Shown in pieces: positions 3,622 to 60,466 of a DNA stretch of 64,000 nt (position 1 is the first letter of the stretch; the number at the start of each line of letters is the position of its first letter). The stretch is taken from the NCBI GenBank assembly GCA_035516965.1, contig DATIZR010000061.1:77557-141556 (forward strand), given 5' to 3'. The notes below the pieces were generated by a model. That model did not search any database. It worked only from the letters and a program-made list of their open reading frames with translations, and had not been told where the DNA came from. The stretch is from Nitrospirota bacterium. GTDB taxonomy: Bacteria; Nitrospirota; UBA9217. A program made the translations under genes and the position numbers.

Positions 3622-3671
3622 AGTGTTATTCCTTCTCCTTGCTTTAAATTGACCCGGCCCTTCATCTCGAA

Positions 3672-3709
3672 ACCAGCGGGGAGTACGGGTCGTCGGACTC
3701 CCCGCTGGT
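3672..3709 (-). other. perfect 13-bp inverted repeat (stem-loop) in the intercistronic region between the corrinoid protein and RACo genes
   Basis: accagcggggagt-N12-actccccgctggt; no U-tract follows on either strand, so it is not a classic intrinsic terminator. Likely an mRNA processing/stability or polarity element. Confidence 0.5.
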
Positions 3710-3742
3710 ACCGCAGTTCCTTGAATGAAGATTGCCGGCTGT

Positions 3743-4414
3743 CTAGGCTGCCTCGCCTTTTCGCAGCGTTTCGAGCATTTTCATGGCTTCGCGAAGAGCA
3801 TTGGGAGCATTGTCCGCCGTGATGTCCGCGCCGTATTCCTCCACGGTCTTCTCGGTGATCGGCGCGCCGCCGATCATGATCTTCACTTTCGGATTTTTCT
3901 CCTTGATCATCGGGATAAGCTTCTTGATGCCGACCATGGAGGTCGTCATCATGGCGGAAAGCATCACGATGTCGGAGTCGGTCTTGAGCTGCTCCTCGAC
4001 GAATTTCTGAAGCGGAACGTCACGTCCAAGGTCGTGCACGGTCCACCCCGATGATTCGAATATGGCCTTGATGAGGTTCTTCCCGAGATCGTGCACGTCG
4101 CCCTGCATCACGCCGAGCACGACCTGGCCGCGTTTTCCGCCGCTCGACACTTTAATATGCGGCTTCAGGACGTCGAGGGCGGCGTAGAGCGCCTTGGCGC
4201 AGAGCAGCGTCTCGGGGACGAAATACTCGTGGCTGTCGAACTTCTGGCTGACGACCTCCATGCCCCCTGCCAGACCCTCCATCGTCATCTTATAGGCATC
4301 GGCGCCCACCTTGACCGCCTCTTCCGCCGTTTTTCTGGCGTCTTCAACTTTGTAGTTGATGACCGCCTCCTGTAGTCTCTTGATCAGTTCCTGTTCCTTT
4401 TCCTTCGTCGCCAT
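3743..4414 (-). CDS. cobalamin-binding corrinoid protein (MtaC/MtbC/MttC-like, B12-binding domain)
   Basis: 223 aa; B12-binding DxHxxG motif (GDVHDLGKNL) and helical cap domain; RBS AGGAGG. Confidence 0.9.
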   Translation of the reverse strand: MATKEKEQELIKRLQEAVINYKVEDARKTAEEAVKVGADAYKMTMEGLAGGMEVVSQKFDSHEYFVPETLLCAKALYAALDVLKPHIKVSSGGKRGQVVLGVMQGDVHDLGKNLIKAIFESSGWTVHDLGRDVPLQKFVEEQLKTDSDIVMLSAMMTTSMVGIKKLIPMIKEKNPKVKIMIGGAPITEKTVEEYGADITADNAPNALREAMKMLETLRKGEAA

Positions 4415-4459
4415 GTATGGTAATCCTCCTTAAGTTATTGATAGTGCGCTCTTGCGTGG

Positions 4460-5524
4460 TTATTTATAGACGCCGTACTTCTTCGACGCTTCGACGATCC
4501 GCTTCGCGTTTCTGAGCGGGGCATTGGGGCCGAACTCGCATCCAGTCGCGAGGATGAATCCTCCGCCTTTGGCGAAGATCTCGATCTCTGCCTTGCACTC
4601 CTCCTCGATCTCCTCGGGCGTACCGAGGAATGCCACCGGTCCCGGCGGGATCCAGCCGATCGTCGTGATGCACTTGCCCCACTTGGCCTTGTGCTCTTCC
4701 CAGCTGTCCACATCGTCCGCAACATAGGCATGGGAGATCGCATGGGGTTTTCCGTATTTCGCGCTCAGGTCGAAGTAGATCCCGTTGCCGCAGTTGTGGA
4801 AGGCGAAGAGCGCGCCTGCCTTGTGCACGTAATCCGCGATCTTCCTGACGGACTCGCCCTCGAATTTTTCCCAGAGCGGCTTGCTCAGGATGCTTTGCGA
4901 TGCGTACAGGTGATCGTAGCATATGCAGTGAACTCCCGCTTCGAGCTGTGCCTTTGTGTACTCCAGCAGCATCTCGTCCACCACTTCGACGGCGGCCATG
5001 ACCTCGGCGGGGTGCTCCATGAGATCCATGAAGAATGCTTCCGGGCCGCGCATCATGCTGAGGACGCCGATGGAGCCGTAGACGAAGCCGACGATGGCAT
5101 GGGTCTTGCCGATCTCCTTCGAAAGGCCCGCGGCGAGATCGATCACGCCCTTGGTCCGCTGCGTCTTGCGCGGGTCGATGCGCTTGACCTTCGTGTACTC
5201 CTTGTAGCTGCTGATGAACGGCTTGTCGTAGTTCGGATGCGCCGTGCCCATCTCGGGGAAGTTGATCTCGCATCCTAATGCATGGGCCTCGACGGAAAGG
5301 TCCACCAAAAGGACCACACCGTCATGGCCGATCATATCGAGAGCGTCCACATGCCCCCTGACCATTGCGGGGATATCAGTGCACTGCGACCATTCCGCGT
5401 AGGTCAGCCCCGAGAACCGGTGGCTTGCGCCGCATACCAGCGGTGCAGCAGGGACCCGGTCCGCCTCCTTGAACTGCATTGCCGTCGCCACTCTTTCAAG
5501 ACCATTCATTCGATCTGTTGCCAT
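4460..5524 (-). CDS. uroporphyrinogen decarboxylase (URO-D) family methyltransferase (MtaA/MtbA/CmuA-like, methylcobamide methyltransferase)
   Basis: URO-D fold protein; start most likely ATG at 5524 (MATDRMNGLE) preceded by AAGGAGG, rather than the longest ORF start at 5554. Confidence 0.85.
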   Translation of the reverse strand: MATDRMNGLERVATAMQFKEADRVPAAPLVCGASHRFSGLTYAEWSQCTDIPAMVRGHVDALDMIGHDGVVLLVDLSVEAHALGCEINFPEMGTAHPNYDKPFISSYKEYTKVKRIDPRKTQRTKGVIDLAAGLSKEIGKTHAIVGFVYGSIGVLSMMRGPEAFFMDLMEHPAEVMAAVEVVDEMLLEYTKAQLEAGVHCICYDHLYASQSILSKPLWEKFEGESVRKIADYVHKAGALFAFHNCGNGIYFDLSAKYGKPHAISHAYVADDVDSWEEHKAKWGKCITTIGWIPPGPVAFLGTPEEIEEECKAEIEIFAKGGGFILATGCEFGPNAPLRNAKRIVEASKKYGVYK

Positions 5525-5582
5525 TGAGAACCTCCTTGCTTTCGGGATTAACAATACCGGTCACATCCAGCATGACCGAACC

Positions 5583-6275
5583 TTATTCGATCAGCACGAG
5601 CCCGCTCCAGACGACCTCATGTTTCGGTGGAATGTCGAAGGGAAGCCCCGCATTCTGGCTCGTTTTCACCACGTCGATGCCGACGCCTTCCATTGCCGGC
5701 CGCGCCTGGTAGGCCCGGCGGCAGCCCGCCCCAGGACCTGCACACGACGGGCAGAGCATGCAGTCGCCCCCGATCAGGCCCAGGGCATAATGAAATCCGA
5801 GGGCCATGGCCTGGGCCTCCACTTCATTCACCAGTTTGTGTAGCCTGACAGCTTGCAGCTTGACGTCATCCAGGTTCCTGCGCGCTTCATCCGGTTCGCC
5901 TCCTTTCTGCGCAGGATCGGTGTTGTGGGATTCCAGGAACTTGAGGACCACTTCCTTGTTGAAATCATCCATGGCCAGGGAGAGCGGCGCCTTGGTCTGA
6001 ACCAGAACTGCGGTCCGGTACTTGCTCAGCGCCGTCCTGAACTCATCCACCGTGGGCACATTGGGAGGACAGGTCAGCGTTCTGCCAAAATGGGGACAGC
6101 GCGGGATCTCGCACTTCATCCGCACCCGTTCGTCGACGACGATCTTGCGCGCCGAAAAGGCCTTTGCCTTCCAGGCGCCTTTGTCGAGGGCGAACTGCAC
6201 GACCTGAGCGATACGCTCCGGTACGCCGTTTTTCTTCTTCCCTGTCGCTTTTCGCGCTGTCCCTGCCGCTGTCAT
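5583..6275 (-). CDS. DUF2284 family predicted metal-binding protein
   Basis: Cys-rich motifs (CEIPRCPHFG, CMLCPSC); family commonly encoded next to corrinoid methyltransferase genes. Confidence 0.7.
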   Translation of the reverse strand: MTAAGTARKATGKKKNGVPERIAQVVQFALDKGAWKAKAFSARKIVVDERVRMKCEIPRCPHFGRTLTCPPNVPTVDEFRTALSKYRTAVLVQTKAPLSLAMDDFNKEVVLKFLESHNTDPAQKGGEPDEARRNLDDVKLQAVRLHKLVNEVEAQAMALGFHYALGLIGGDCMLCPSCAGPGAGCRRAYQARPAMEGVGIDVVKTSQNAGLPFDIPPKHEVVWSGLVLIE

Positions 6276-6277
6276 CA

Positions 6278-6511
6278 CTACTCCTTGCCGCCCATTGAGA
6301 TATAGAATTTGGGCTTATAGGTATCCACATTCACCATGTCCTGGTTCAGCACGACGCGCTTCTTCTTCCAGCAGGCCGGGCACATGTACCGCGACTTGAA
6401 GCCACGGTCGGGCCCTGTGTAGCGGAGCTCCATATGGGCCCTGCAAGCCTTCACCCCGCAATCCGCGCAGATGAAATCCGCCTTCCCCCCGCACTTGAAA
6501 CATTTTTCCAT
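6278..6511 (-). CDS. small zinc-ribbon protein (77 aa, 8 Cys in CxxC pairs)
   Basis: MEKCFKCGGKADFICADCGVKAC...CPAC; AGGAGG RBS; overlaps the downstream gene start. Confidence 0.55.
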   Translation of the reverse strand: MEKCFKCGGKADFICADCGVKACRAHMELRYTGPDRGFKSRYMCPACWKKKRVVLNQDMVNVDTYKPKFYISMGGKE

Positions 6512-6634
6512 GATTCATTCCTCCTATCCCCGGACAAGCCGGAACTAAAACTTGACACAGATAAAGTCCGATAAAAAATTACGAAAAATCATGATCCTTC
6601 ATAAGCAATCTGTGCAGATCAGTGTCAAAACCTT

Positions 6635-9340
6635 CTAAGTCGTCAGCCGCTTGTAGATCAACGGCAGCCGCACCGGCAGCGTTTCCACGTTTTCGATGAG
6701 GGTGTAGTTCGTTTCCCCGTACATGTACGGAAGGTAGTCGCGGCTCTTTTTGTCCACGGTGATGCAATACGAGAAGACCCCTTTTCTTTTGGCCTCCCAG
6801 AGGGAATGCCGCGTGTCCTCCACCGCATAATCGGCATCCCCGTAATCGATGTCATAGGGCCTGCCGTCTGACAGGAGGATCAGGAGCCGGATCCGCGAGT
6901 TCTGCCGGCTGAGCAGCCGTGTGGCGTGCCGGATGGCCGCTCCGAGCCGCGTCTGGGCCATGGGTTTGATATAGTCGAACCGCTGCCGGAACCGGGTGGG
7001 AGACTTCTCGTCGAAATCGCGGATCACATAAAAATCCATCTTGTCCCGGTAGTTCGACGAGAAGCCGTACACGGCCCATTGATCGCCGATGCTTTCCAGC
7101 GCTTCGGCCATCAGCACCAGCCCCTCGCGCTCGACGTCGATGATCGTCTTGCCCGAGGGCAGCTCGTCGCCCGTGGAATAGCTCATGTCCACCAGAAAGG
7201 CTACGGACACGTCGCGCAGGTTCTTTTCCCGCCTGATATAGACCCGGTCCGAGGGCGTGATGCCCGCGTGGCGCTCGACGACCGCTTCGATCATGGCGTC
7301 GAAGTCGATATCATCGCCCCGCTCCTCACGGAAGAACCTCTGGATGCGGTCGGGCCGCAGCATGCTGAAGTACCGGCGCAGCACGCTCACCAGGCCGTAC
7401 TGCTCCGCGACCGTTCGGTCGTAGTACGCGGTCGAACTTTCCGGCGTGTCCATCTCCCGCACGCGGACCCAGTCCTTCCGGTAATCCCCCATCTTCGAAT
7501 CCCACTCGTCGTAGTACACGGTCCTGCGGAACCGCTTCTCCGCCTCCATCTCGTCGAGCACGGCTTTGACCTGACCGAAGAGCTCCAGCAACCGGTCCAT
7601 GTCCTGCACCTGCCAGAGGAGTTCCTCGGATTCGATGACGGCTTCTTCCTCGATGCGCGTGAGCGCGGCGTTCACCAGTTCCGGCTCCACTGTTGATTTC
7701 CTGTCCGCGAACCGCTCGACGAATTCGATCGTCAGGCGCTTCATGCCCTGGCGGGCGTTCTCCACGAGCTCGTAATCGATCACGCCGCGATAGAACAGGC
7801 GGTTCCCCGCTTCCCGGTTCTCCGAGATCTCACAGGCATCCGTCCCGTCCAGCGATCGAAGAAGCTCCACGGTGAGCTCGAGCACTTCGCGGGAGGAGCA
7901 GCCCGGACGCAGCACGCGGACGAGTGAATCCCTGAGCAGCGCGCCCAATTTGTCCCCTGCACCCGGCGAGGCGTCGTAGCCCTTGACGTCCCGGAGGCCG
8001 AGCTGTTCGAAGATCGATCGCTCCGTCTTGCCCAGCGCCCGTTCCCGGGCAAGGTAGGCGTTCATGATCAGGTCCCGGTCCTTCCTGAGGCCCGGGTATG
8101 CACTCATCATCAGGAAATCCACCCGCTCATCTTCGAGAAATTCGAAGACGCGAAACGCCTGTCTGGGGTTCGGGAGGGCGCCAAGGCCGGCCCTCACCTC
8201 GGAAGCCGGGAGTTCGAAGGTCCCGTGCAGCAGATGGGCCATTTCGTGGGTCAGGATCCACTTGTACGTCGTAAAGTTCGTGTCCTCGTCGGGGAAGGCC
8301 TCGATCCGCGCCGGCAAAAAGATGCGTGCCCCGTCCGTGACGGAGAAAAACCGGCTCAAACCGGGCAGGTTCTTGTAAAAGACCGACGACGAGCGCAGCA
8401 TGATCTTCGCGCCTATCAGGGCTTCGGCATAGTCCCGCAGGACCGTATGGATGTCTTTCAGCTCCAGACCCTTGACGAGGCTCTCCATCGTCGTTCGGCT
8501 GGACCCGGTCTGGAGCGAGAAGAAGGATTGCCCCTTGTCCGCCTGACTGTCGACGTTCTCCAGGCCCCGGGATACCCACTGCTCGAGATCTTTCATGGTG
8601 AGCCTGCCCAGGATCTGCGGCGCCGACTTGAAGTACTGCAGGGCCAGGTCCGCCTTTTTCGCTTTTCCCGCTGATGCGCCGGTAGCGAGCAGGCTGTGGG
8701 CCGAGTAAGCGGCCTTGATGTTCGGTGCCTTGTCGATCAGCAGCAGGCCGAGAAGTGCCCAGCGGTCCAGGTCGCAGACGTCGATCTTTTTCATCACCTC
8801 GGGACTGGACCGGAAATATTCCCGGCCCGTTTTCCAGGATTTCTGCGTGATCTCCACGCCGCGCACTGCCCAGCGTTCGAACGCCTCATCGCCCACGCTG
8901 TCCAGCATCGAGGGGCTCGCCTCCAGATATTGCAGCGCCACGTCCTGGTCCTTGTCAGCCAGCGCAGCCGCGATCTTCGCCCATTCCAGGATCACCGCGT
9001 CAGGCCTTCCTTTGAGGCGCGGCAGCCCGCGGAAGAGACTTTCTACGACGCTCCACTTTGACTTGCCCATCAGGGTGAAAAGAGAAAGGAGTTCTGTTCG
9101 CACGGAAAGGCCTTCCACGGTCTGTAATGCCGCATCTCCTGAGGAGAGAAGCGACAGGGGCAGCGCCCTGTCCAGCGACTGGAACTGCCGGACTATGCCG
9201 AGGTAGCACTTCAGGCCCTCGTCATCGATGATCCCGCGCAGCCGGGAAACGGCCCCGTCCACGCGTTCCTTGCCGAGTTCCACGGCGATCGATGCCGCGA
9301 GCACGGCGATCTGCTCCTGTATGGTGTCTTCGGTTGTCAT
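6635..9340 (-). CDS. VWA domain protein of the CbbO/NorD family (partner of CbbQ-type MoxR ATPase)
   Basis: 901 aa; C-terminal von Willebrand A domain with MIDAS DMSYS; 4-nt overlap with the upstream cbbQ-like gene. Confidence 0.8.
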
Positions 9341-10170
9341 AGAACCGCCGATACGATCTCCTTCAGTGTTTTCTGGATCTCCTGATCGTCGGTGATAGGC
9401 TTGATCAGGGCAACCTCGCAGGCGCGTCTGGGTTCCACCCCGCGGGTGACCAGCACGCCGGCATAGATCAGCAGACGCGTGCTCACACCCTCGTCGAGCC
9501 CTCGGTCCTTGAGCCCGCGGAACTTTTCCGCGATCTTCCTGAGTTCGGATGCCGTCTTGTGATCGACCCCGCTCTCGTGCACCACGATCTCCTGCTCCAG
9601 GCTGGCGGACGGATAGTCGAATTCCAGCGTGATGAACCGCTGCTTGGTGCTCTGCTTCAGGTCTTTAAGCACGGTCTGATAACCGGGGTTATAGGAGATG
9701 GCCAGCATGAACGAGTCAGACGCCTCAAGGATCTGCCCTCGCTTTTCAAGGGGCAGCACCCGGCGGTCGTCCGTCAGGGGATGGATGACCACGGTGGTGT
9801 CCTTCCTTGCCTCGACGATCTCATCGAGGTAGCAGATGCCGCCGTGGCGGACCGCAAGGGTAAGGGGGCCGTCCTGCCAGCGCGTCGATCCGCCGTCGAG
9901 CAGGTATCTGCCCACCAGGTCGCTTGCGGTAAGGTCTTCGTGGCAGGCGATCGTGATGAGCGGCTGCCCGACCTTGTATGCCATGTAGGACAGGAACCGC
10001 GTCTTGCCGCAGCCCGTCGGTCCTTTCAGCATGAGCGGCAGCCGGTTCTCATAGGCGATCCGGAAAAGCTCCACCTCGTCCTGTATGGGCAGGTAGAAGG
10101 GCTCTTGGGTGATCTTGTAGTCCTGCATGCTCTTTTCCGTCGCATGTGTCGTCATCATTGATTCTTGCAT
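9337..10170 (-). CDS. CbbQ/NirQ/NorQ/GvpN family AAA+ (MoxR) ATPase
   Basis: Walker [25 protein letters not shown] motif, strong family-level match to CbbQ. Confidence 0.9.
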
Positions 10171-10189
10171 ATCCCCGCCTCCCCTTCGC

Positions 10190-10618
10190 TCACTGATTCT
10201 TCTCTTTCGCCTGATCCCGGTTCAGGCCGTACTGTACCTGGACCGCCTCGATCGCCTGTTCCGAAGCCTTCCTGATGGACTCTTCGGAAAGACCGTAAAT
10301 AACCGCATTCATCACCAGCCGGAAGCGCTTCGTTTTATTGCCGTCCCGCCCCGCGACCATGATCTCTCCGTTGCCGCCGACCGTATCGGCGTGAAGGAAC
10401 CCGGAGGAATGCTCTATGAACGCCTTTACGTGACTGACGTCCTTTGCTCCCGCTGCCTCGCACCCCGAGGCCGTCAGATGTACCGCGTCGCAGGCAAGGG
10501 ACCTGAGTTCTGCGGGATCGAGGCCCTCAGGGGATGAGAAGACCCTTTCCAGGCTGTGGCTGTTGATGTCCTGATGGGCCGGATTCTCAGGCTCGGCAAA
10601 TTGAACCTTGAGTTTCAT
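10190..10618 (-). CDS. hypothetical protein (142 aa)
   Basis: ORF translationally coupled (4-nt overlap) to the upstream CobW-like gene; no confident family call. Confidence 0.5.
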
Positions 10619-11232
10619 GTCGTCACCGTAGCGCTCTGGATCCGGCCGGCAAGAGATGACAACCCTTCTCCCGTGACGGTCGAGATCCGGACGACCTCAG
10701 CTCCCTGATTGATCTCGCGCACAGCTCGCGAAGCCGCTTCGAGCTCCTCTGCCGTCACCAGGTCGGATTTGCTCAGCCCGATGATGGTTGCGTCCTTTAT
10801 CTGGAGCGACACCAGGCGCTTGAGCGTATCGTAGGTCAGGAGCTTCGCGGCCCGGGACGTGTCGAACAGGACAATGGTGTGGCCCATCTCCACCGGGTTC
10901 TTCCGCGCCGACAAAAGCACGGTCTGGCGGATCGCGTCAGGGACGGCTATGCCCGTGGGCTCGATGATGACGACGTCGGGACGTACGTTAGCGGCGAGGG
11001 TCTCCAGGGTCTTCATGAGGTTTCCCGCTACCTGGCAGCAGATGCATCCGCCCCCGATGTCCTTGACCGTCAAACCGTATTCCTGCATGACCGCCCCGTC
11101 CACGGGCACAACACCCACATCATTCACCAGGATGGCGATTTTCGCCCCGCCTCCGGCCAGCTTTTTGCTCAGCGCGATGATGAGCGTTGTCTTCCCCGAG
11201 CCGAGATATCCGGCTATCAACACGATCTTCAT
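10615..11232 (-). CDS. CobW/HypB/UreG (G3E) family GTPase, probable metallochaperone
   Basis: P-loop GYLGSGKTT and the G3E metal-binding GGCICC motif. Confidence 0.85.
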   Translation of the reverse strand: MKIVLIAGYLGSGKTTLIIALSKKLAGGGAKIAILVNDVGVVPVDGAVMQEYGLTVKDIGGGCICCQVAGNLMKTLETLAANVRPDVVIIEPTGIAVPDAIRQTVLLSARKNPVEMGHTIVLFDTSRAAKLLTYDTLKRLVSLQIKDATIIGLSKSDLVTAEELEAASRAVREINQGAEVVRISTVTGEGLSSLAGRIQSATVTT

Positions 11233-11248
11233 GGTTCGGCAGCCGCCT

Positions 11249-12265
11249 CTACACCTTGGTCAAGGCCTTCATCAGGGCTTCCATGTTCTCCCGCGGCACT
11301 TCAGGCCAGAGATCGCAGCCGGGCCAGACCGCGTTCGCCCCACCCTTGAGGGAGTCGAGCGCCGCCGGGCCCACGTCCTTGGCCGCGCCCTTGTGGAGGA
11401 CCTTTATGGGATCGAAATTGCCGAGGATGAGGGCCCCGGCGCCGAGCTTCTGGCGCGTTTCAGCAATGCAGTTCTTTTGGTCAACGCTCACCGCGTCCGC
11501 TCCGCATTCGAACATATCCGTGATGATGGCATTCGTATCGCCACAGATGTGCAGGATGCTCGGTCGCGGCATTTCTGCCAGGATCCGGGTGAGATGGGGC
11601 TTGATCAGGCTCTTGAAGCTCCGCGGGCTCATCACATCCGAGGTTCCGCCCATTTCCCGAAGCGTAAAATAGTCAGCCCCGGCCTCCTGGTATACTTTGA
11701 AGACCTCCACGATGAAACCCGAGATCTTTTCCAGGAGTTTGGCCGTCTTTTCCGGTTCGAGAAAGGACTCCTCGAACAACACGTCGAGCTCTTTTATCTG
11801 GCCCGCAAGGGTAAAGGGGCCGAGGACATAGGTACCGATCGCAACGTCGTTCCCAAGCTCCCTTCTCAAGGCCTTGATGGCCTTGACCACCACGGGGATC
11901 CTCCCGGCGTTCCTGATGTCGGTGGGGATCTTGAGGTCGTCGGCGCTGGTAACGACTTTCTCCTTGACCGTGGGATAGAGGAGTCCTTCAACTTCATCAT
12001 AGAAGTTCATCTTCGATCCCAGCGCTTCAGCCTCCACGCCGAGGTCAAAGGGCACCACCGCGCATTCGAAGCCGAATTCCCGGTACATGCCGCCTGCCGC
12101 CCTGGCCATGAGCTCCGGGTCCCGGTGAACCTTTGAAAAAACTATTCCATTTTTGTCCAGGACCGGCTTGATGACATTCCCCATCCCGCTGAATATGGGC
12201 GGACGGTCAACCTTTTCTCCTTTGAGAAATTTCATAACCCGCTCTTTTGCCGTCAATGACGCCAT
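11249..12265 (-). CDS. uroporphyrinogen decarboxylase (URO-D) family methyltransferase (second paralog)
   Basis: 338 aa URO-D/MtaA-like fold; preceded by the conserved palindromic promoter module at 12373-12394. Confidence 0.85.
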   Translation of the reverse strand: MASLTAKERVMKFLKGEKVDRPPIFSGMGNVIKPVLDKNGIVFSKVHRDPELMARAAGGMYREFGFECAVVPFDLGVEAEALGSKMNFYDEVEGLLYPTVKEKVVTSADDLKIPTDIRNAGRIPVVVKAIKALRRELGNDVAIGTYVLGPFTLAGQIKELDVLFEESFLEPEKTAKLLEKISGFIVEVFKVYQEAGADYFTLREMGGTSDVMSPRSFKSLIKPHLTRILAEMPRPSILHICGDTNAIITDMFECGADAVSVDQKNCIAETRQKLGAGALILGNFDPIKVLHKGAAKDVGPAALDSLKGGANAVWPGCDLWPEVPRENMEALMKALTKV

Positions 12266-12372
12266 AACTTCTCCTTTCGCCTCTCGCGCCGATGCCCCGG
12301 TTGCTCCGCAAGCGTCGGCATTTGTTTTCTATTTTTTTTGATGTATGCATACTTCCATGATCGCCGTAAATC

Positions 12373-12394
12373 GTCAATCGGGGAAACCCTGATT
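12373..12394 (-). promoter_or_regulatory. 22-bp palindromic operator-like motif GTCAATCGGGGAAACCCTGATT overlapping a TTGAC -35 element, upstream of the URO-D methyltransferase gene
   Basis: Identical 22-mer also at 15177-15198 upstream of cooS. In gene orientation it reads AATCAGGGTTTCCCCGATTGAC-N17/18-AGTATG, i.e. a dyad centred about -43 (class II activator position) fused to a -35/-10-like pair. Confidence 0.5.
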
Positions 12395-12574
12395 CTCCAG
12401 AATAAAATACCTTAGCCATCCTATTTCGGCTCTCTCATCCGTGTAAGACTTCAGGATGACGAATACAAGGGTAACAGGATAAAAGTGATAGAATAAAATC
12501 GTACAAAAGTAACCTATCAATCGACAACACTCTGCGTTTTATAGAGATAACTCGCTCCTTCCGCTTTTGCCGAA

Positions 12575-13165
12575 TCACAGGTTCTTGATAAGGTCGAGAA
12601 AATGGTCAAGGGTAATGGACATCCGCTCCACAGGCAAGCCGGTAAACACGCTGAACCTTTGCACCTTTATCTCGTCGAGGGGGATAACGCCCGTATCAAA
12701 CACGAGAATCCGTTTGTAGTGTTCGAACATTGACCGGAAATTAAAATCAAAATCTTTTTTCCCCGCTTCGAACATCTTTTCCCAGTTATTGATCCACCCC
12801 GCGGAAAGAAAAAAACTGATTGCCTCGTTGTTGAGACGCGCTACCTCCTCCCGTCCCACAAAGGCCTCGAGACAGTTTCCTGCAGCCAGTTTCTTGGCCC
12901 CGTATCGTTCCAGAATATCCATGATGTCGGGGTGGCAATGTCCGTAAAGAACCTTCATGGTGACCCCCTCTGCCCGGTTTTTTTCCAATGCATCAACCAG
13001 GTTCGCCTTCAATCTGTCGAAGTTCACATGAAGGGCGGCATCAAGGAAGATGACCCGGTGCGGAAATTTATTTTCCCTGATCAAATATTCAATTTCTTCC
13101 TTGAATATTCCGCAGCTGATAAAGATGACGGGGTCCTTTTGCATGATTTCAACCTTTCTCCGCAC
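12575..13165 (-). CDS. DUF1638 domain protein
   Basis: 196 aa; family typically encoded next to corrinoid methyltransferase systems. Confidence 0.7.
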   Translation of the reverse strand: MRRKVEIMQKDPVIFISCGIFKEEIEYLIRENKFPHRVIFLDAALHVNFDRLKANLVDALEKNRAEGVTMKVLYGHCHPDIMDILERYGAKKLAAGNCLEAFVGREEVARLNNEAISFFLSAGWINNWEKMFEAGKKDFDFNFRSMFEHYKRILVFDTGVIPLDEIKVQRFSVFTGLPVERMSITLDHFLDLIKNL

Positions 13166-13194
13166 GGCAGGCTGAGCGTATCACTCAGGCGAGC

Positions 13195-15114
13195 CTATAC
13201 ATCAAAGGCGATCTCCCTCCGTTTTGCCAGGATATGTTCTTCGATCTCTTGAGCTGCCTTGACCGAATCGTCTTGCAGGAGCATTCTGCCGCCGGTAACA
13301 TCGACCATATCTTCGGTGAGGTATTTTTTCACGAGGGGACTGCCGCCGATCATCGGCTCAGGTGAAACATACGTCAGGAGTCCGTAAGCAAGGGCGGTAA
13401 AGATGTCGGCGATCGCCTTTTGCTCCATGTACTCGGGCACGGCCGCGGCTACGGGCAACTGGCTGGTGTCGCAGCCGATGGTCCAGGCGAGCGCCGCCAC
13501 GGTGTCAAGGATCTTACCCACGTCGGTGCAGGAGCCATAAGACACGATCGGAGGCACGTCGTATTTTTCACAGACCGACCTGAGTTTCCTGCCTGCTTTT
13601 TTTGCCATCTCTTTTGTCGACATACAGAGGTTCTGGTGCGTAGAGGAGCAGCATCCGGCCCCGATAACCATGATATCGCGCTTAATGAGTTCCAGCGTCA
13701 GCGTCTCTATCGAGCGGCCTCCCTGCTCATGCCGGGCGTTCGTGCATCCGGCGACGGCCACCGCGCCCTTGATGTTCCCCTTCTTCAGCTCATCGATGTA
13801 CGTGTTGATATTGTTCCCGAACATGGTGAGCACTGTCTCGGTCGTGTAGCCCGCGATGCACTGCGTTCCCTTCGCGCTCTTCGGGATATTGACGATTCTC
13901 TTTTTGTCCGCCTTCCTCGCTTTGAACTGTACCATGGCCGCATGGAGGATATGATCGGCCTGCTCGTCGGCTTGAGCGGGGTCGAAATCAACCGCATCCA
14001 CGCCGGGAAAGCGCACGACGGGGTCGGTGCTGATCAGCCTTGTTCCATATTTGTCAGCATAGTCCTTCAGAGTCGGCACGGAACAGTTCAGGTCCATGAG
14101 AAAGAGATCGATCAGCCCGGTGGCGATAAAGAGCTCTTCCTGTATCCAGTTCCCCAACTGCCCTCCGAAGATCTCCCGGTAATGGCCTTTACCCGAAACG
14201 TTCATGAGCTGCTGGCCCTCGCAGAGAGATCCGTAGAGTTTGATGCCCTTTGCCCCTGCATCCCGGGCGGCGGTCTGGAACGCTTTTCCTGCGGCTTTTT
14301 CCATGATGTGTCCGGCGAAGACCGGCTGGTGGCCGTTGGATACGATGTTCACCGTCTCCGGATCGAGACAGCCGACGTTCGACGAACCATTGACCAGTTC
14401 AGGCGTGCCGAGCAGAATATCCTGGATGACCGTGATCCCCCAGAGGCCGACGTATTCGTTTGCAAGACCGAGTCTCAATGCGCTCTGCATCAGATCGACA
14501 GGGTCATTGCTGACATTGGTCATGCACTTGGTGAGCGCGGTCAGGATCTCCGAACTCGGCCCGCCTGCGTAGAGGCCCTTTGCTTTCCAGAGTTCCCTTC
14601 TCTTGTCGACGGCAAAAAGGTCCATGAGCGTCATGGGCTCGTCACCCTGTTTGCCTATCTCGCGGAGGATGAAATCGGCGAACTGTGTCGCGAGCTCATG
14701 CACCGGCCGGGTGTGGTCCCAGCCAAGCCCCTGGCACATCCTCTGGAGTTTGCCTTCGTCCCTGAGCTTCAAGGGGGACTTCCCTTCGCCTATTGCCTTG
14801 AGCGTAGTAGCGAGATTGCGGCACTGGTAGGTGTTCGCAGCAGTGCCGATCGCCGCAAGTTTGAGCAGGTTGCGGGCGACAATGACATCGCCGCTTGCGC
14901 CGCACACTCCGAGCGGAGCCTTGCTCGTGATCCTGCAGGGGCCGTCGGAGCATAACTGGCAGCTGAGCCCTTTCTTGCAGGTGCCGCATTGGGGTTGCTG
15001 GGATTCGAACCGCTCGAAGACGGTGCTCATGCCCTGACTGACAGCGGCCTGATGCAGTTCGTGGCTTTGCTTGTCCTGATGACTTTTCTTCACAACGGTG
15101 ATTTTCGTCTGCAT
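13195..15114 (-). CDS. cooS: anaerobic Ni-dependent carbon monoxide dehydrogenase catalytic subunit CooS
   Basis: 639 aa; N-terminal QPQCGTCKKGLSCQLCSDGPCRI (B/D-cluster Cys pattern of Ni-CODH); size and conserved Cys/His positions fit CooS rather than the shorter hybrid-cluster protein. Confidence 0.85.
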   Translation of the reverse strand: MQTKITVVKKSHQDKQSHELHQAAVSQGMSTVFERFESQQPQCGTCKKGLSCQLCSDGPCRITSKAPLGVCGASGDVIVARNLLKLAAIGTAANTYQCRNLATTLKAIGEGKSPLKLRDEGKLQRMCQGLGWDHTRPVHELATQFADFILREIGKQGDEPMTLMDLFAVDKRRELWKAKGLYAGGPSSEILTALTKCMTNVSNDPVDLMQSALRLGLANEYVGLWGITVIQDILLGTPELVNGSSNVGCLDPETVNIVSNGHQPVFAGHIMEKAAGKAFQTAARDAGAKGIKLYGSLCEGQQLMNVSGKGHYREIFGGQLGNWIQEELFIATGLIDLFLMDLNCSVPTLKDYADKYGTRLISTDPVVRFPGVDAVDFDPAQADEQADHILHAAMVQFKARKADKKRIVNIPKSAKGTQCIAGYTTETVLTMFGNNINTYIDELKKGNIKGAVAVAGCTNARHEQGGRSIETLTLELIKRDIMVIGAGCCSSTHQNLCMSTKEMAKKAGRKLRSVCEKYDVPPIVSYGSCTDVGKILDTVAALAWTIGCDTSQLPVAAAVPEYMEQKAIADIFTALAYGLLTYVSPEPMIGGSPLVKKYLTEDMVDVTGGRMLLQDDSVKAAQEIEEHILAKRREIAFDV

Positions 15115-15176
15115 GGTCTCCCCTTTCCCGCATACCCCTGTTTGTTGTATTCATACTGGCACGAGGCCGCAACCGG

Positions 15177-15198
15177 GTCAATCGGGGAAACCCTGATT
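15177..15198 (-). promoter_or_regulatory. second copy of the 22-bp palindromic motif plus TTGAC/AGTATG promoter-like elements, 62 nt upstream of cooS
   Basis: Exact 22/22 identity to 12373-12394, with conserved spacing to a downstream AGTATG. Confidence 0.5.
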
Positions 15199-15431
15199 TA
15201 GCCCCATGAAATGCCTGATACAGGCGCGAAACTCCTGCTGCAGGACCCGTGAACGACGCTGCGCCGTGTTCAGCTGATCGCCAGGGCCGGGGCAGTCGGC
15301 AAAAATGGTTCTGTGCTTTATTGCAGGGCCTTCCGGAGGATGAGGCGTACGTCAATGAGGGGGCATCGTTACAAGGGTCGACAGAAAAAGGGCTGGTGCA
15401 GGGCGGAGGTCGTTTTCCTGTTCATGAGTGA

Positions 15432-16079
15432 TCAAAGGGATGTTAATCCCTCGCGGATCGCGTATTTCGTCAATTCAGCGACGGTATGGATATTGAGCTT
15501 TTCCATGACTTTCATCCGGTGCGTTTCGATGGTCTTGATGCTCAGGTGCAGCTGAAAAGCTATTTCCTTGGAGGTCTTTCCTTCAGCCATGAGCTGGAGC
15601 ACCTCCCGCTCCCGGTCGGTTAAATGGGAGAAAACGCTCGGTTCTGATTTCGATGAGTTTCGCACGAAATGGTCCACGACCACTCCTGAGATGCAGGGGC
15701 TGAGATAGGTCTGGTTCTTCAGCACCGTCTTGATGGCGGCGAGCAGTTCGTCGACCGCGCATTGCTTGAGAAGGTAGGCCGTTGCCCCCGCCTTGAGCAT
15801 TTCCGATACGAAATGCCGGTCGGAATGCATGGAGAGCGCGATCACTTTGACACCGGGACGGTCTGCGACGATCTGGCGGGTGGCTTCGATGCCGTTCATG
15901 TCGGGCATGGCAATGTCCATGACGACGACGTCGGGCGACAATTTCTTCGCAAGGCGGACTGCTTCCCTGCCGTCCTCGGCTTCGCCGACCACCGCGAGCT
16001 CCGCATTCTGTTCGAGCACCATGCGCAGACCCCCGCGCATCATGACGTGATCGTCTGCGAGAAGTACCTTGATTTTCAT
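15432..16079 (-). CDS. LuxR/NarL-family response regulator (REC + HTH_LuxR)
   Basis: Receiver motifs LLADDH, VVVMDIAMP, KVIALS; C-terminal LuxR HTH (LTDREREVLQLMAEGKTSKEIA). Confidence 0.9.
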   Translation of the reverse strand: MKIKVLLADDHVMMRGGLRMVLEQNAELAVVGEAEDGREAVRLAKKLSPDVVVMDIAMPDMNGIEATRQIVADRPGVKVIALSMHSDRHFVSEMLKAGATAYLLKQCAVDELLAAIKTVLKNQTYLSPCISGVVVDHFVRNSSKSEPSVFSHLTDREREVLQLMAEGKTSKEIAFQLHLSIKTIETHRMKVMEKLNIHTVAELTKYAIREGLTSL

Positions 16080-18436
16080 TCCCTGACAGCCTCCGCGTTT
16101 TCTTCCCGGTCGAGGGGCGAGGTCACCGTCACCCGAGTGCCCCGGCCGGGCCCGGTATCGATCGAGAGGGAGCCCCCGAGGTACTTCAACCGCTCCCGTA
16201 TGCTGAAGAACCCGAAGGTCAGGTCCGTGTCGATCTTCGAAGCATCGAACCCGATGCCGTCGTCTTCGACGACGATTTTTATGGCGCCGGCCTCCCGGCT
16301 TATGCCGACATTCACTTGGTGCGCCTGGGAGTGCTTCACAATGTTCATGAACAGCTCACGCACGGTCTGGAACAGAAGAATGCTGACATCTCTCTTCAAC
16401 GGCTTGGGGCTGCCGTCATTTTCACAGTAGAATAGAATGTAATGCTGTTTCTGCATCTGCTCCGCGAGCCATTCAATCGTCGCTTCAATGCCAATATCAT
16501 ACAGCAGCGGCGGACTCAGCTCGAAGGACAATGATTTCGTGTAACTGATCGATTGATCGATGAGTTCTACGATGCCGCCGACGGCCTCCTCGTGGGCGTT
16601 CCCGGACAGCGTATTTCTGAGGACCCCGAGCTTGATCCTGGTCAGGGCGAGCATTTGTCCGATATTGTCGTGAAGGTCCATGGCAATTCGCCTTCTTTCC
16701 TTCTCTTCGGCGAGCAGCAGCTCCGAGGCCAGGAGCCTCAGCTGCTCCTGGTAGGCGTGGAACTGCTCTTCGGTCTTCTTCCGCTCGGTAATGTCACGCT
16801 GGACCGAGACAAAGTGGGTTACCTTTCCCCGTTCGTCCCGCAGGGGGGTGATCTGCCACTCCATATTGAACTGCGTGCCGTCTTTCCGTGTGGCCACCGT
16901 CTCGATATAAAAGGCCTTGCTCTGGGATGTGCCTGTCTCCAGTTTATTCCACTGGGTGCTGTCGGTGAGCGGCCCCTGGAGAAGCGAAAGCTTGCCGGTC
17001 ACTTCCTCCGCCGCATATCCCGTCATCTTGGTAAAAGCCGGATTCACGAAGACAACTCGCGACGCGGAGCGCACGGGGGTTGCTGTTGTGATGACGACCG
17101 CGTCTCCCGCCTGCTGGATCGCCGATTCGGTCAGGCGCAGCTTCTCTTCGGCCTTTTTCCGCTCCGTGATGTTATTGAAGAAGGCGAGCGTGGCGGGCCT
17201 TCCCATCCACGTGATCAGGACCGAGTTGATCTCCAGCCATTTGGTATTCCCTTCGCCGTCCAGAACCCGGCAGGAATAATAGGGAGAAACGCTGTCCCCC
17301 TTGATCCTCTTCAGGTGCCGCTCCATCACCATCTCCCGGTCGTCGGGATGAATGAAATCGGTAAAGGGACGAGAGGTCAGTTCTTCCTTCGAATGTCCCC
17401 AGATCTTTACCGCCTTGGGGTTCACGTACCGGAAGAAATTATCCTGCGTGATCAAAATGCCCTCGTTCGCATACTCGACCACGAGCCGGTATTTCTCCTC
17501 TGATTTCCGGAGGCTCTGCTCCATCCATTTGCGCTCGGCGATTTCCTGCTGCAGCTCCTCGTTCGCGATGCTGAGCCGGGCGGTGCCGATCGTCACCCGC
17601 TCTTCCAGGTCGCTGCTCCACTTTTTTAAAAGCTCTTCGTGGTGTTTCTGCACGGTCACGTCGTTGCCGACGCAGAGGACCTCGGTCATGGTTCCGGAAT
17701 CATCGAAGAGTGCCGTGTTCGCCCAGGAAATCCAGGCGGTCTCGCCGTTCTTCCGGATATGTTCGAATTCAGCGCTTGCGTACAGCCCGGGAGCGGCCGC
17801 GATATCGTGCAGCATGGTCTCCATGTCGGGCCCGGGGTTTTCCGTTCTTTGCATGACGGTCCCCACGATGCTCTTCCCGACGAGCTCCTGCTCGCCGTAC
17901 CCGAAAAATCTCTGTGCAAAAGGATTGATGAAGGTGATGACGCCCTTGCCGTCCATCCGCAGGATGATGCTGTTGGCGCTTTCGACGAGGTGCTTATATT
18001 TGGCTTCGCTCTCCCTGAGCGCCTTCCGTGTCTGCTTCTCGTTCGTGATATCCTCTACCGTGCAGATCATGCCGTCGTACGACCCGTTCTTGATATTCGG
18101 GATCAGCCATCCCGACTGGTATGTCTGTTTTCCCGCCAAGGTGCGGATGGAAACCCCGGGATAATACACAGGCCGCAGCGTTGCCTGCGCCTCATCGTAG
18201 TAGGGCTTGAACTCCTGCGTTGCGTGCTCCGCGTTTTGCGGGAAGACCCTTGACCCGATCAGCTTCTGCTGCGTCACTCCGGCGATCATCTCCATTGCCT
18301 TGTTCGCGTAGTAGATGACGTCGTTCTTGTCCGCCACCCAGACGCCGGATGTGATCCCATCCATGATGCTCTCATACAGATGCTTGCTGATTTTGTCCCT
18401 TTTTCGCGGCCCTGCTTCTTTTACCAGTGGTCTCAT
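16076..18436 (-). CDS. multi-PAS sensor histidine kinase (HisKA_3/NarL-type kinase core)
   Basis: 786 aa; several PAS/PAC repeats followed by an HisKA_3 H-box (RRRIAMDLHDNIGQ) and an HATPase_c; 4-nt overlap with the cognate LuxR regulator. Confidence 0.85.
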   Translation of the reverse strand: MRPLVKEAGPRKRDKISKHLYESIMDGITSGVWVADKNDVIYYANKAMEMIAGVTQQKLIGSRVFPQNAEHATQEFKPYYDEAQATLRPVYYPGVSIRTLAGKQTYQSGWLIPNIKNGSYDGMICTVEDITNEKQTRKALRESEAKYKHLVESANSIILRMDGKGVITFINPFAQRFFGYGEQELVGKSIVGTVMQRTENPGPDMETMLHDIAAAPGLYASAEFEHIRKNGETAWISWANTALFDDSGTMTEVLCVGNDVTVQKHHEELLKKWSSDLEERVTIGTARLSIANEELQQEIAERKWMEQSLRKSEEKYRLVVEYANEGILITQDNFFRYVNPKAVKIWGHSKEELTSRPFTDFIHPDDREMVMERHLKRIKGDSVSPYYSCRVLDGEGNTKWLEINSVLITWMGRPATLAFFNNITERKKAEEKLRLTESAIQQAGDAVVITTATPVRSASRVVFVNPAFTKMTGYAAEEVTGKLSLLQGPLTDSTQWNKLETGTSQSKAFYIETVATRKDGTQFNMEWQITPLRDERGKVTHFVSVQRDITERKKTEEQFHAYQEQLRLLASELLLAEEKERRRIAMDLHDNIGQMLALTRIKLGVLRNTLSGNAHEEAVGGIVELIDQSISYTKSLSFELSPPLLYDIGIEATIEWLAEQMQKQHYILFYCENDGSPKPLKRDVSILLFQTVRELFMNIVKHSQAHQVNVGISREAGAIKIVVEDDGIGFDASKIDTDLTFGFFSIRERLKYLGGSLSIDTGPGRGTRVTVTSPLDREENAEAVRE

Positions 18437-18559
18437 TTTCCCTTCTCACTGAACCCGGTCTCGGTAATGGTGTGCACCTGCGCTCTACCAACGGCCAAAA
18501 TTCGTACCCGCCTGGCCGCTTCGAAGGTCGCTCCCGATGAACAGGAACGACAAATTACG

Positions 18560-18802
18560 TCACGCCCTGCTTCCCCTTTTCCCTGCCACGGCGGCAACAA
18601 TTTTCGAAAAAACAGGGAAACGACCCGCTGCGTGCGTGGGAAAAATCAGGTCATCATTGACCGTAACCTCGAAAGCGCCTCTATCAGAAGAGTGGATAAG
18701 CACGGGTTTGATGCCATTTTCCGCCTCGATCACCCTGGCAAGGCTGGCAGCGATCGGCCGGTAATTGCAGGTCCCGCAGCAGGTGATGGAAATCTGTCTC
18801 AT
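18560..18802 (-). CDS. SelW/Rdx family redox protein, second paralog (Cys form)
   Basis: 80 aa, MRQISITCCGTCNYRPIAA..., about 60% identical to the 1179-1415 product. Confidence 0.8.
   Translation of the reverse strand: MRQISITCCGTCNYRPIAASLARVIEAENGIKPVLIHSSDRGAFEVTVNDDLIFPTHAAGRFPVFSKIVAAVAGKRGSRA

Positions 18803-58435: not shown

Positions 58436-60466
<2,031 letters not shown>

What the first reader, a model, noticed from the sequence alone, without database searches (positions are those of the whole stretch)
12373..12394. Duplicated palindromic operator + promoter module in front of cooS and a corrinoid methyltransferase gene
An identical 22-mer GTCAATCGGGGAAACCCTGATT occurs at 12373-12394 and 15177-15198. 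Each lies 60-110 nt upstream of a minus-strand gene start (URO-D methyltransferase; cooS). In gene orientation both read AATCAGGGTTTCCCCGATTGAC-N17/18-AGTATG(A/C)AT. The imperfect dyad AATCAGGG/CCCCGATT is centred about 10 bp upstream of a TTGAC -35 element, the spacing of class II CRP/FNR-family activators such as CooA. A looser relative (ATCAGGagggagaaCCCTGAT) sits at 18918-18938 upstream of the second Rdx gene. This suggests co-regulation of the CO and methyl branches by one dimeric transcription factor not encoded in the window.
Basis: seen in the sequence. Interest (0 to 1): 0.6.

Follow-up and report, generated by a model that had tools for sequence, protein, structure and literature searches.

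The report
Duplicated response-regulator operator before cooS and methyltransferase
The repeated 22-base sequence is a real, conserved regulator-binding site fused to a promoter, and it is most likely bound by the two-component response regulator encoded right next to it, not by a CooA-like CO sensor; this is an ordinary kind of gene switch, though from an unstudied and very widespread regulator family.

Summary
The identical 22-mer is present at both coordinates, with none expected by chance. Each copy holds a 19-bp dyad, AATCAGGG-TTT-CCCCGATT. Its last bases start a TTGAC(C/G) -35 box. Exactly 17 nt later comes a weak -10 box, (C/A)AGTAT. A half-site, T(A/C)AGG, lies 22 bp upstream.

In nine protein-anchored related loci this pair is always followed by the same dyad. 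Usually the methyltransferase operon follows, once a molybdopterin oxidoreductase operon.

Similar dyads are 18-fold enriched just downstream of homologous regulator genes across many phyla. The exact 19-mer also occurs in 67 metagenome stretches, mostly non-coding, with a phased -10 box.

No CRP/FNR gene was found among the window ORFs scanned, and no CooA box lies near cooS. The "looser relative" at 18918-18938 is not conserved and scores below chance.

Most likely the neighbouring regulator activates both promoters from about -43. The cooS copy arose by promoter duplication when cooS was inserted. Binding, transcription starts and the kinase signal are untested. This is a new member of a known kind.

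The parts
15180..15198 (-). Operator dyad AATCAGGGTTTCCCCGATT, cooS copy (predicted centre about -43)
   Evidence: It scores 27.6 bits on a matrix built from independent sites. It is conserved in L004, L151 and metagenome relatives.
15208..15218 (-). Upstream half-site-like element TCAGGCATTTC, 22 bp upstream of the equivalent TCAGG of the dyad (cooS copy)
   Evidence: It is a conserved block in the 18-sequence promoter alignment. A weaker second site peaks at exactly -22 in 57 independent contexts.
15176..15181 (-). Predicted -35 hexamer TTGACC, overlapping the right arm of the dyad (cooS promoter)
   Evidence: Read from the sequence. G at the third position of the hexamer in 53 of 57 contexts.
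15153..15158 (-). Predicted -10 hexamer CAGTAT, 17-nt spacer; predicted transcription start near 15146
   Evidence: An A2/T6 hexamer sits at this exact offset in 47% of 57 contexts, against about 8% background. The simple promoter scan did not flag it, because only 3 of 6 positions match the consensus.
13195..15114 (-). cooS, Ni-CO dehydrogenase catalytic subunit
   Evidence: Pfam Prismane. NCBIfam TIGR01702 625 bits, above the 478-bit cutoff.
12575..13165 (-). DUF1638 gene, probably co-transcribed with cooS
   Evidence: Pfam PF07796. The cooS-DUF1638 pair recurs in L008 and L153.
12376..12394 (-). Operator dyad AATCAGGGTTTCCCCGATT, methyltransferase copy (the ancestral copy)
   Evidence: A matching or variant dyad is present upstream of the methyltransferase gene in L004-L008 and L151-L153.
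12404..12414 (-). Upstream half-site-like element TAAGGTATTTT, 22 bp upstream of the dyad's TCAGG (methyltransferase copy)
12372..12377 (-). Predicted -35 hexamer TTGACG (methyltransferase promoter)
12349..12354 (-). Predicted -10 hexamer AAGTAT, 17-nt spacer; predicted transcription start near 12342
1678..12265 (-). Target operon: MtaA-type methyltransferase, CobW GTPase, 142-aa protein, CbbQ/MoxR AAA+, VWA protein, 77-aa ORF, DUF2284, second URO-D methyltransferase, corrinoid (B12-binding) protein, RACo activator
   Evidence: Pfam and NCBIfam. The gene order is conserved in L005-L008, L152 and L153.
15432..16079 (-). NarL/LuxR-type response regulator, the proposed factor that binds the dyad
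   Evidence: Response_reg plus GerE domains. Closest solved structures are VraR, NarL, DevR and DesR. The gene co-occurs with the dyad.
16076..18436 (-). Cytoplasmic sensor histidine kinase with four PAS domains, HisKA_3 and HATPase_c; cognate partner of the regulator
   Evidence: It is syntenic with the regulator in all related loci.

Best explanation
Each copy is a composite activator-dependent sigma-70-type promoter.

Layout:
- A strong 19-bp dyad, AATCAGGG-N3-CCCCGATT, is centred near -43. Its last two bases begin the -35 box TTGAC(C/G).
- A weaker half-site lies 22 bp (two helical turns) upstream, near -65.
- A poor -10 box, (C/A)AGTAT, follows after a 17-nt spacer.

Proposed mechanism: the NarL/LuxR-type response regulator encoded immediately upstream (16079-15432) is phosphorylated by its four-PAS HisKA_3 kinase (18436-16076). 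It binds the dyad as a dimer, probably with a second dimer at the upstream site. It then recruits RNA polymerase and switches on cooS-DUF1638 and the corrinoid methyltransferase operon together.

Origin: the methyltransferase copy is ancestral. The cooS copy arose by duplication of about 75 bp of promoter when cooS(-DUF1638) came to lie between the regulator gene and the methyltransferase gene. Selection has since kept the operator identical while the spacers drifted.

What is shown: the sequence anatomy, synteny, conservation, co-occurrence with the regulator gene and phasing of the promoter elements.

What is inferred: binding by this regulator, activation rather than repression, and the start sites. 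The kinase signal is unknown.
For: 1. Adjacency: the kinase and regulator genes lie directly upstream of the first copy.

2. Synteny in nine protein-anchored loci with 66-94% regulator identity (Nitrospirota, Thermodesulfovibrionales, Rokubacteria). The kinase-regulator pair is always followed by a high-scoring dyad and then by the methyltransferase operon (L004-L008, L151-L153). In L154 it is followed by two tandem dyads 22 bp apart and a TorD-like/molybdopterin oxidoreductase operon instead. The site therefore tracks the regulator, not the target.

3. In loci where cooS is divergent from the kinase gene (L008, L153), cooS has no site. cooS carries the site only where it sits between the regulator and the methyltransferase gene.

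4. A non-circular test used the pattern ATCRGGG-N3-CCCYGAT taken from the window alone. With up to 2 mismatches it is 18-fold enriched in the 300 nt after regulator-homologue stop codons: 13 hits against 0.72 expected, P about 1e-12. With the orthologous loci L004-L008 set aside, the count is 11 against 0.59 expected.

5. The DNA-binding domain of this regulator clade is nearly invariant across phyla (...KT[VI]E.HR...AELTKYAIREGLTSL).

6. The exact 19-mer occurs in 67 metagenome stretches, giving 57 non-redundant contexts:
- 17% lie inside ORFs of 120 aa or more, against 71% for random positions in the same contigs.
- A second site sits at exactly -22.
- G follows the final TT in 53 of 57.
- A -10-like hexamer sits at one fixed offset in 47%, against about 8% background.

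7. In 18 orthologous promoters, only the dyad, the upstream half-site and the -10 position are conserved. The 19-nt spacer is free to vary.
Against: - There is no binding or expression data of any kind, and transcription starts are unmapped.
- The -10 box matches only 3 of 6 consensus positions, and the simple promoter scan did not flag either promoter.
- No site was found upstream of the kinase operon, so there is no sign of autoregulation.
- In most non-orthologous metagenome contexts no regulator gene is visible on the contig, so the link there is only by inference.
- An operator overlapping the -35 box could equally serve repression.
- Nothing in the kinase's PAS domains identifies a signal.
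- The position matrix used was built partly from regulator-adjacent sites. Only searches are free of that circularity.
Confidence: 0.7

Rival explanations
1. The dyad is the operator of the neighbouring response regulator (or another dimeric factor), but it acts as a repressor site that blocks the -35 box. The two operons would be de-repressed rather than activated.
For: The dyad overlaps the predicted -35 hexamer. Repressors commonly occupy that position. The -35 box itself is a good match, TTGAC(C/G), 5 of 6.
Against: The weak -10 box, the phased upstream auxiliary site at -22 and the rigid dyad-to-(-10) spacing across 57 contexts are typical of activator-dependent promoters. From general knowledge of the family, NarL-family regulators sited near -42 usually activate.
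Confidence: 0.15
2. A CRP/FNR-family activator such as CooA, encoded elsewhere in the genome, binds the dyad in class II fashion.
For: The position relative to the -35 box resembles class II CRP/FNR sites. One target is cooS, and none of the window ORFs scanned has a CRP/FNR-type domain, so the factor would have to be encoded elsewhere.
Against: The dyad has an odd 3-nt spacer and a GGG/CCC core, unlike TGTCGGCNNGCCGACA (PMC545781). No CooA-like box lies near cooS. The site follows the NarL-type regulator gene across phyla and across different target operons. cooS lacks the site where it is not adjacent to the regulator.
Confidence: 0.04
3. Some other widely conserved DNA-binding protein, unrelated to the neighbouring two-component system, recognises the 19-mer. 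The co-occurrence with the regulator gene is a by-product of conserved gene neighbourhoods.
For: Most of the 57 metagenome contexts show no regulator gene on the same contig. The exact 19-mer is conserved across organisms with 36-64% G+C.
Against: The neighbourhoods differ widely: methyltransferase, Mo-oxidoreductase, receiver-domain, HD-GYP, STAS and MerR genes. The regulator gene is the only recurrent neighbour.
Confidence: 0.08
4. The 22-mer is a dispersed repeat, a mobile-element remnant, or a hairpin acting at the RNA level (terminator or attenuator).
For: The sequence can form a 7-bp hairpin. A terminator-like call at 12431-12414 lies just upstream of the methyltransferase copy. Related dyads often lie shortly after a stop codon.
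Against: There are only two copies in 64 kb. There is strong non-coding and orientation bias with a phased -10 box. No U-tract follows the hairpin, and there is no Rfam match. There is no covariation: pairing and covariation do not exceed shuffles, and variants break pairs on one side.
Confidence: 0.03

Closest known systems
NreB-NreC of Staphylococcus (PAS/HisKA_3 kinase plus NarL-type regulator binding a GC-rich palindrome, TAGGG-N4-CCCTA; site recalled from memory, not checked here)
   Same: Same two-component architecture: a cytoplasmic PAS kinase of the HisKA_3 type with a NarL/LuxR-HTH regulator. Some sources label homologues 'NreC'. The operator is likewise an inverted repeat with GGG...CCC cores.
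   Different: The spacer is 3 nt, not 4, and the flanks differ. The kinase has four PAS domains, whereas NreB is recalled from memory to have one PAS domain with a cysteine-ligated [4Fe-4S] cluster; that cysteine signature was not specifically searched for here. The targets are CODH and corrinoid methyltransfer, not nitrate respiration. No NreC equivalog match was found.
DosS/DosT-DosR (DevR) of Mycobacterium
   Same: It is a NarL-family regulator; PDB 3c3w matches at E = 5.6e-28. From memory: it binds about 20-bp palindromes, often in phased tandem, with the proximal box overlapping the -35 box, and its kinases sense CO, NO and O2.
   Different: The Dev box (TTSGGGACTWWAGTCCCSAA, from memory) is a different sequence. 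The DosS/DosT sensors are haem-GAF domains, not PAS. No evidence here points to gas sensing.
CooA (CRP/FNR family) at coo promoters
   Same: It controls a cooS gene. The dimer site lies just upstream of, or overlapping, the -35 box (class II geometry).
   Different: The consensus TGTCGGCNNGCCGACA (PMC545781) is unrelated, and no such box is present. No CRP/FNR-type domain was found among the window ORFs scanned. The site tracks a NarL-type regulator.
MecA/MecD two-component pair of the anaerobic dichloromethane (mec) cassette
   Same: A dedicated histidine kinase and DNA-binding regulator are encoded with MtaA-family methyltransferases, a corrinoid protein and a RACo activator (bioRxiv 10.1101/2021.08.30.458270).
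   Different: MecA has a PocR sensor domain. The mec cassette has an MtrH methyltransferase and a transporter, and no cooS, CobW, MoxR or VWA genes. No operator is described there.
VraR/LiaR-type regulators (closest solved structures)
   Same: Best sequence match among solved structures: 5hev VraR, E = 1.9e-40. Same domain organisation.
   Different: They are cell-envelope stress regulators with membrane kinases and different operators.

Membership tests
NarL/FixJ (LuxR-type HTH) response-regulator operator | A regulator gene with receiver plus GerE/LuxR HTH domains, and a cognate HisKA_3 kinase, next to the regulated promoter | tested here: met
   Pfam Response_reg + GerE (16079-15432) and PAS x4 + HisKA_3 + HATPase_c (18436-16076), directly upstream of the cooS copy.
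NarL/FixJ (LuxR-type HTH) response-regulator operator | Site made of two inverted half-sites suited to a dimer, often with auxiliary phased sites | tested here: met
   AATCAGGG-N3-CCCCGATT. A second site lies exactly 22 bp upstream.
NarL/FixJ (LuxR-type HTH) response-regulator operator | Site and regulator gene co-occur across genomes, independent of target gene identity | tested here: met
   All nine protein-anchored related loci carry the site, including one with a different target operon. Enrichment is 18-fold downstream of homologous regulator genes, P about 1e-12.
NarL/FixJ (LuxR-type HTH) response-regulator operator | Direct, phosphorylation-dependent binding of the regulator to the site | not testable with these tools
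   Needs EMSA, footprinting or DAP-seq.
CRP/FNR-family (CooA-type) class II operator | Even-spaced palindrome of the TGTCGGCNNGCCGACA / 5-N6-5 type | tested here: not met
   The dyad has a 3-nt odd spacer and different half-sites. The only window match to the CooA consensus (3 mismatches) is at 41135, fewer than the 4.7 expected by chance. Consensus taken from PMC545781.
CRP/FNR-family (CooA-type) class II operator | A cognate CRP/FNR regulator gene | tested here: inconclusive
   None was found among the window ORFs scanned with Pfam. A few ORFs were not scanned, and the rest of the genome is unavailable.
CRP/FNR-family (CooA-type) class II operator | Site centred about 41-44 bp upstream of the transcription start | tested here: inconclusive
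   The predicted centre is about -43, based on the phased -10 box. The start is not mapped, and the feature is shared by many activator families.
Sigma-70-type promoter | -35 and -10 hexamers with a 16-18 nt spacer in the single sequence | tested here: inconclusive
   TTGAC(C/G)-N17-(C/A)AGTAT: 5 of 6 and 3 of 6 positions match. This is below the scan threshold.
Sigma-70-type promoter | Promoter elements at a fixed distance in independent occurrences | tested here: met
   G completes TTG in 53 of 57 contexts. An A2/T6 hexamer sits at one offset in 47%, against about 8% background, P about 3e-15.
Dispersed repeat (REP/MITE-like) | Many copies per genome without positional or orientation bias relative to genes | tested here: not met
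   Two copies in 64 kb. 17% lie inside long ORFs against 71% for random positions. Orientation is fixed relative to the -10 box.
Intrinsic terminator or structured RNA | Hairpin with a U-tract, or base-pair covariation | tested here: not met
   No U-tract. No Rfam hit. Pairing 72.5% against 73.0% in shuffles, and no excess covariation.

The most novel reading that the evidence does not exclude
The four-PAS kinase and NarL-type regulator could form a new, third kind of CO- or redox-responsive switch for Ni-CO dehydrogenase genes, beside CooA and RcoM. It would couple CO oxidation to reductive activation of corrinoid methyltransferases. Its 19-bp operator, conserved letter for letter across phyla, would then mark the regulon of a large uncharacterised sensor family in anaerobes.
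Probability: 0.1. Interest if true: 0.75.

Novelty: new member of a known kind. Interest (0 to 1): 0.42.

Why it matters
- It gives a concrete, testable regulatory link for an uncultured Nitrospirota lineage: kinase to regulator to a 19-bp operator to cooS and a complete corrinoid methyltransferase system.
- It shows how a CODH gene was wired into an existing regulon by promoter duplication.
- It provides an operator consensus and promoter geometry for a NarL-type regulator clade that spans many phyla. I found no characterised member of this clade.
- With that consensus, regulons could be predicted directly from genomes and metagenomes.
- It would also add a two-component route to the short list of ways cooS genes are controlled.

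Tried and rejected
- Rfam search of 12000-19200 at a permissive threshold found nothing near either copy.
- The simple promoter/terminator scan did not flag the promoters. Its terminator-like call at 12431-12414 overlaps the conserved upstream half-site, so it is doubtful as a terminator.
- Hairpin reading of the dyad: no covariation.
- CooA box search: negative.
- The third site at 18918-18938: rejected, with a low score, wrong spacing and no conservation.
- Literature searches for the motif string and for NarL-type sites with TCAGGG/CCCTGA cores found nothing. A search for the NreC site returned only irrelevant papers.
- Signal clues in the kinase: the fourth PAS domain resembles LOV domains, but by my reading of the translation it appears to lack the photoactive cysteine and flanking NCRF residues. 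No cofactor or signal can be assigned.
- NCBIfam gives only sub-threshold similarity to MctR/MctS, UvrY and NarL.
- A further matrix hit at 53346-53364 (17 bits) lies within the range of shuffled controls and was not pursued.

Full report
**Observation**

The 22-mer GTCAATCGGGGAAACCCTGATT occurs exactly twice in the window, at 12373-12394 and 15177-15198. There are no further matches with up to three mismatches, and none appeared in 100 shuffles.

Read in gene orientation (minus strand), both copies are AATCAGGGTTTCCCCGATTGAC. One ends 62 nt before the cooS ATG (15114). The other ends 107 nt before the ATG of a URO-D/MtaA-type methyltransferase (12265).

An alignment of the two upstream regions shows a second shared block, AGTATG(A/C)ATACA(A/T)CAAA. 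The 19 nt in between are unrelated.

**Context**

The window is a metagenomic contig of an uncultured member of the Nitrospirota, near Thermodesulfovibrionales. The gene order on the minus strand is:

- Rdx (18802-18560)
- a cytoplasmic histidine kinase with four PAS domains, HisKA_3 and HATPase_c (18436-16076)
- a NarL/LuxR-type response regulator (16079-15432)
- [copy 1 of the module]
- cooS (15114-13195), a true CODH equivalog
- DUF1638 (13165-12575)
- [copy 2 of the module]
- MtaA-type methyltransferase
- CobW GTPase
- a 142-aa protein
- CbbQ/MoxR AAA+
- a 901-aa VWA protein
- a 77-aa ORF
- DUF2284
- a second URO-D methyltransferase
- a corrinoid protein
- a RACo activator (down to 1678)

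The 'methyl branch' is therefore a complete corrinoid methyltransferase system.

No ORF with a CRP/FNR-type domain was found among the window ORFs scanned. No CooA-like box (TGTCGGCNNGCCGACA, PMC545781) lies near cooS.

**Comparative evidence: synteny**

A scan of species-representative genomes with the regulator protein returned 80 loci. In the five closest (L004-L008; 66-94% identity; Nitrospirota, Thermodesulfovibrionales and a Rokubacteria MAG), the kinase-regulator pair is followed by the methyltransferase-CobW-CbbQ-VWA operon.

cooS lies between the regulator and the methyltransferase only in L004. In L005-L007 it is absent from that position. In L008 the cooS-DUF1638 pair is divergent from the kinase gene.

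Every one of these loci has the dyad in front of the methyltransferase gene:

- L004: identical 22-mer, twice
- L008: identical 19-mer
- L005: AATCAGGGTTCTCCCTATT
- L006: AATCAGGGGAATCCCGATT
- L007: AATCAGGAAATGCCTCATT

Four more loci were fetched through regulator homologues, so they are unbiased with respect to the motif. They agree:

- L151 has both copies, with one base change.
- L152 and L153 have the site before the methyltransferase gene.
- The divergent cooS in L153 has none.
- In L154 the same kinase-regulator pair precedes a TorD-like/molybdopterin oxidoreductase operon. Two tandem dyads 22 bp apart lie in front of it.

The site therefore follows the regulator, not the target genes.

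**Comparative evidence: wider association**

I used only the pattern taken from the window, ATCRGGG-N3-CCCYGAT. Matches with up to two mismatches are 18-fold enriched in the 300 nt after stop codons of regulator homologues. The enrichment holds across Desulfobacterota, Geobacter, spirochaetes, cyanobacteria and others. There were 13 hits against 0.72 expected (P about 1e-12). With the orthologous loci set aside, the count is 11 against 0.59 expected.

The DNA-binding domain of this clade is almost invariant across phyla.

**The 19-mer elsewhere**

An exact-match scan of metagenome contigs found AATCAGGGTTTCCCCGATT in 67 stretches. About 13 are orthologous cooS or methyltransferase loci. The rest come from organisms with 36-64% G+C. 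The genes downstream are unrelated to each other: receiver domains, HD-GYP, STAS, MerR, outer-membrane and small proteins.

The hits are not random:

- Only 17% lie inside ORFs of 120 aa or more, against 71% of random positions in the same contigs.
- The base after the final TT is G in 53 of 57 non-redundant contexts.
- A hexamer with A at position 2 and T at position 6 sits at one fixed offset (positions 41-46 from the dyad start) in 47%, against about 8% background.
- A second, weaker dyad peaks sharply at exactly -22, and only on the upstream side.

**Anatomy**

These data define the following layout: auxiliary site (about -65), 19-bp dyad (centre about -43), -35 box TTGnnn formed by the last two dyad bases plus four more, a 17-nt spacer, then the -10 box.

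| Element | cooS copy | Methyltransferase copy |
|---|---|---|
| Upstream half-site | 15218-15208 | 12414-12404 |
| Dyad | 15198-15180 | 12394-12376 |
| -35 box | 15181-15176 (TTGACC) | 12377-12372 (TTGACG) |
| -10 box | 15158-15153 (CAGTAT) | 12354-12349 (AAGTAT) |
| Predicted start | about 15146 | about 12342 |

In 18 orthologous promoters only these blocks are conserved. The -10 box matches only 3 of 6 consensus positions, and the simple promoter scan missed it. That fits an activator-dependent promoter but is not proof.

**Alternatives examined**

- Structured RNA or terminator: there is no Rfam match and no U-tract. Treating the dyad as a hairpin gives no excess pairing or covariation over shuffles, and variants break pairs on one side.
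- Dispersed repeat: excluded by copy number and positional bias.
- The 'looser relative' at 18918-18938: its half-sites are 4 bp too far apart, it scores 6.5 bits against 27.6 for the true sites, and it is missing from L004, L151, L153 and L154.
- Repression instead of activation remains possible, because the dyad overlaps the -35 box.

**Mechanism and history**

Most likely the phosphorylated NarL-type regulator binds as a dimer at about -43, helped by a second dimer or half-occupancy at about -65. It would activate both promoters, so CODH and the corrinoid methyltransferase system respond to whatever the four-PAS kinase senses.

The methyltransferase copy is ancestral, since it is present in all lineages. 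The cooS copy exists only where cooS sits between the regulator and methyltransferase genes. Both copies are kept identical in relatives with 83-95% protein identity, while their spacers differ. This indicates an old duplication under purifying selection, not a recent repeat.

The signal is unknown. The last PAS domain resembles LOV domains. By my reading of the translation it appears to lack the photoactive cysteine.

DUF1638 has been linked genetically to B12-dependent methionine synthesis together with a RamA-like activator (PMC5764234). So cooS-DUF1638 may feed low-potential electrons to corrinoid reactivation. That is speculation.

**Comparison with known systems**

It works like other NarL-family operators that overlap the -35 box (NreC, DosR, NarL; their site details are from memory). 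Its closest solved relatives are VraR, NarL, DevR and DesR. NCBIfam gives only sub-threshold matches.

A dedicated two-component pair next to a corrinoid methyltransferase cassette has a precedent in MecA/MecD of the mec cassette. A survey of CODH contexts noted two-component genes of another type (COG0642/COG0745) near Ni-CODHs without assigning a role (PMC6344411).

I found no paper describing this motif.

**Verdict**

The operator-plus-promoter reading and the co-regulation are supported. The CRP/FNR/CooA assignment and 'not encoded in the window' are not.

This is a new member of a known kind. It is of moderate interest as a clean regulon handle for a widespread, uncharacterised regulator clade, and as an example of promoter duplication recruiting cooS.

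Noticed in passing
window 12288-12319 (minus strand): The methyltransferase 5' UTR carries a hairpin (GCCGACGCUUGCGG...CCGGGGCAUCGGC, -18 kcal/mol, z = -1.7). It is shared with the closest relatives (L004, L099/L141, L100, L122), and one pair shows compensatory changes (C-G, G-C, A-U). It is absent in L005-L008 and L108.
   Followed up: partly
window 53346-53364: This is the next-best match to the operator matrix (TATCAGGATTTTTCTGACT, 17.0 bits). It lies in the intergenic region just upstream of a HisKA kinase (53326-51734) and a sigma-54-dependent regulator (51702-50266). It is within the range of shuffled controls (maximum 21.9), so it is not individually significant.
   Followed up: partly
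window 12575-15114; L008; L153: cooS is paired with a DUF1638 gene, and no cooC or cooF is adjacent. The same pair recurs in a Rokubacteria MAG and in L153. DUF1638 has been linked genetically to B12-dependent methionine synthesis alongside a RamA-like activator (PMC5764234). This hints that the CODH serves corrinoid reactivation.
   Followed up: partly
window 6635-11232: A CobW-type GTPase, a 142-aa protein with no family match, a CbbQ/MoxR AAA+ ATPase and a 901-aa VWA protein are embedded in the corrinoid methyltransferase operon. They are conserved in all related loci. The module looks like a chelatase or metallochaperone, and its role is unknown.
   Followed up: no
window 18560-18880; L004, L151, L153, L154: A small Rdx-family gene recurs just upstream of the kinase gene. 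In the window, L004 and L151 it has a conserved promoter-like sequence, CTGTCTTGACAGGC...GTGTTAACGT, which contains the inverted repeat CTGTC-TT-GACAG.
   Followed up: no
window 16739-17131 (kinase residues about 436-566): The PAS domain next to the HisKA_3 domain is most similar to LOV domains of blue-light kinases. It reads GKLSLLQGP where LOV domains have GRNCRFLQGP (LOV motif from memory), so by my reading it appears to lack the photoactive cysteine and flanking residues.
   Followed up: partly
L154 6921-6961; L094 1316-1371: In L154 the orthologous kinase-regulator pair is followed by two tandem dyads 22 bp apart and a TorD-like/molybdopterin oxidoreductase operon. L094 has two exact 19-mers in inverted orientation 37 nt apart, which suggests divergent promoters.
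   Followed up: partly
window 50266-53326, 58436-63543: The window is rich in signalling genes. It holds two further histidine kinase / sigma-54 regulator pairs, a PAS-GGDEF protein (53667-54929) and a Lon-type protease carrying a receiver domain (58436-60466).
   Followed up: no
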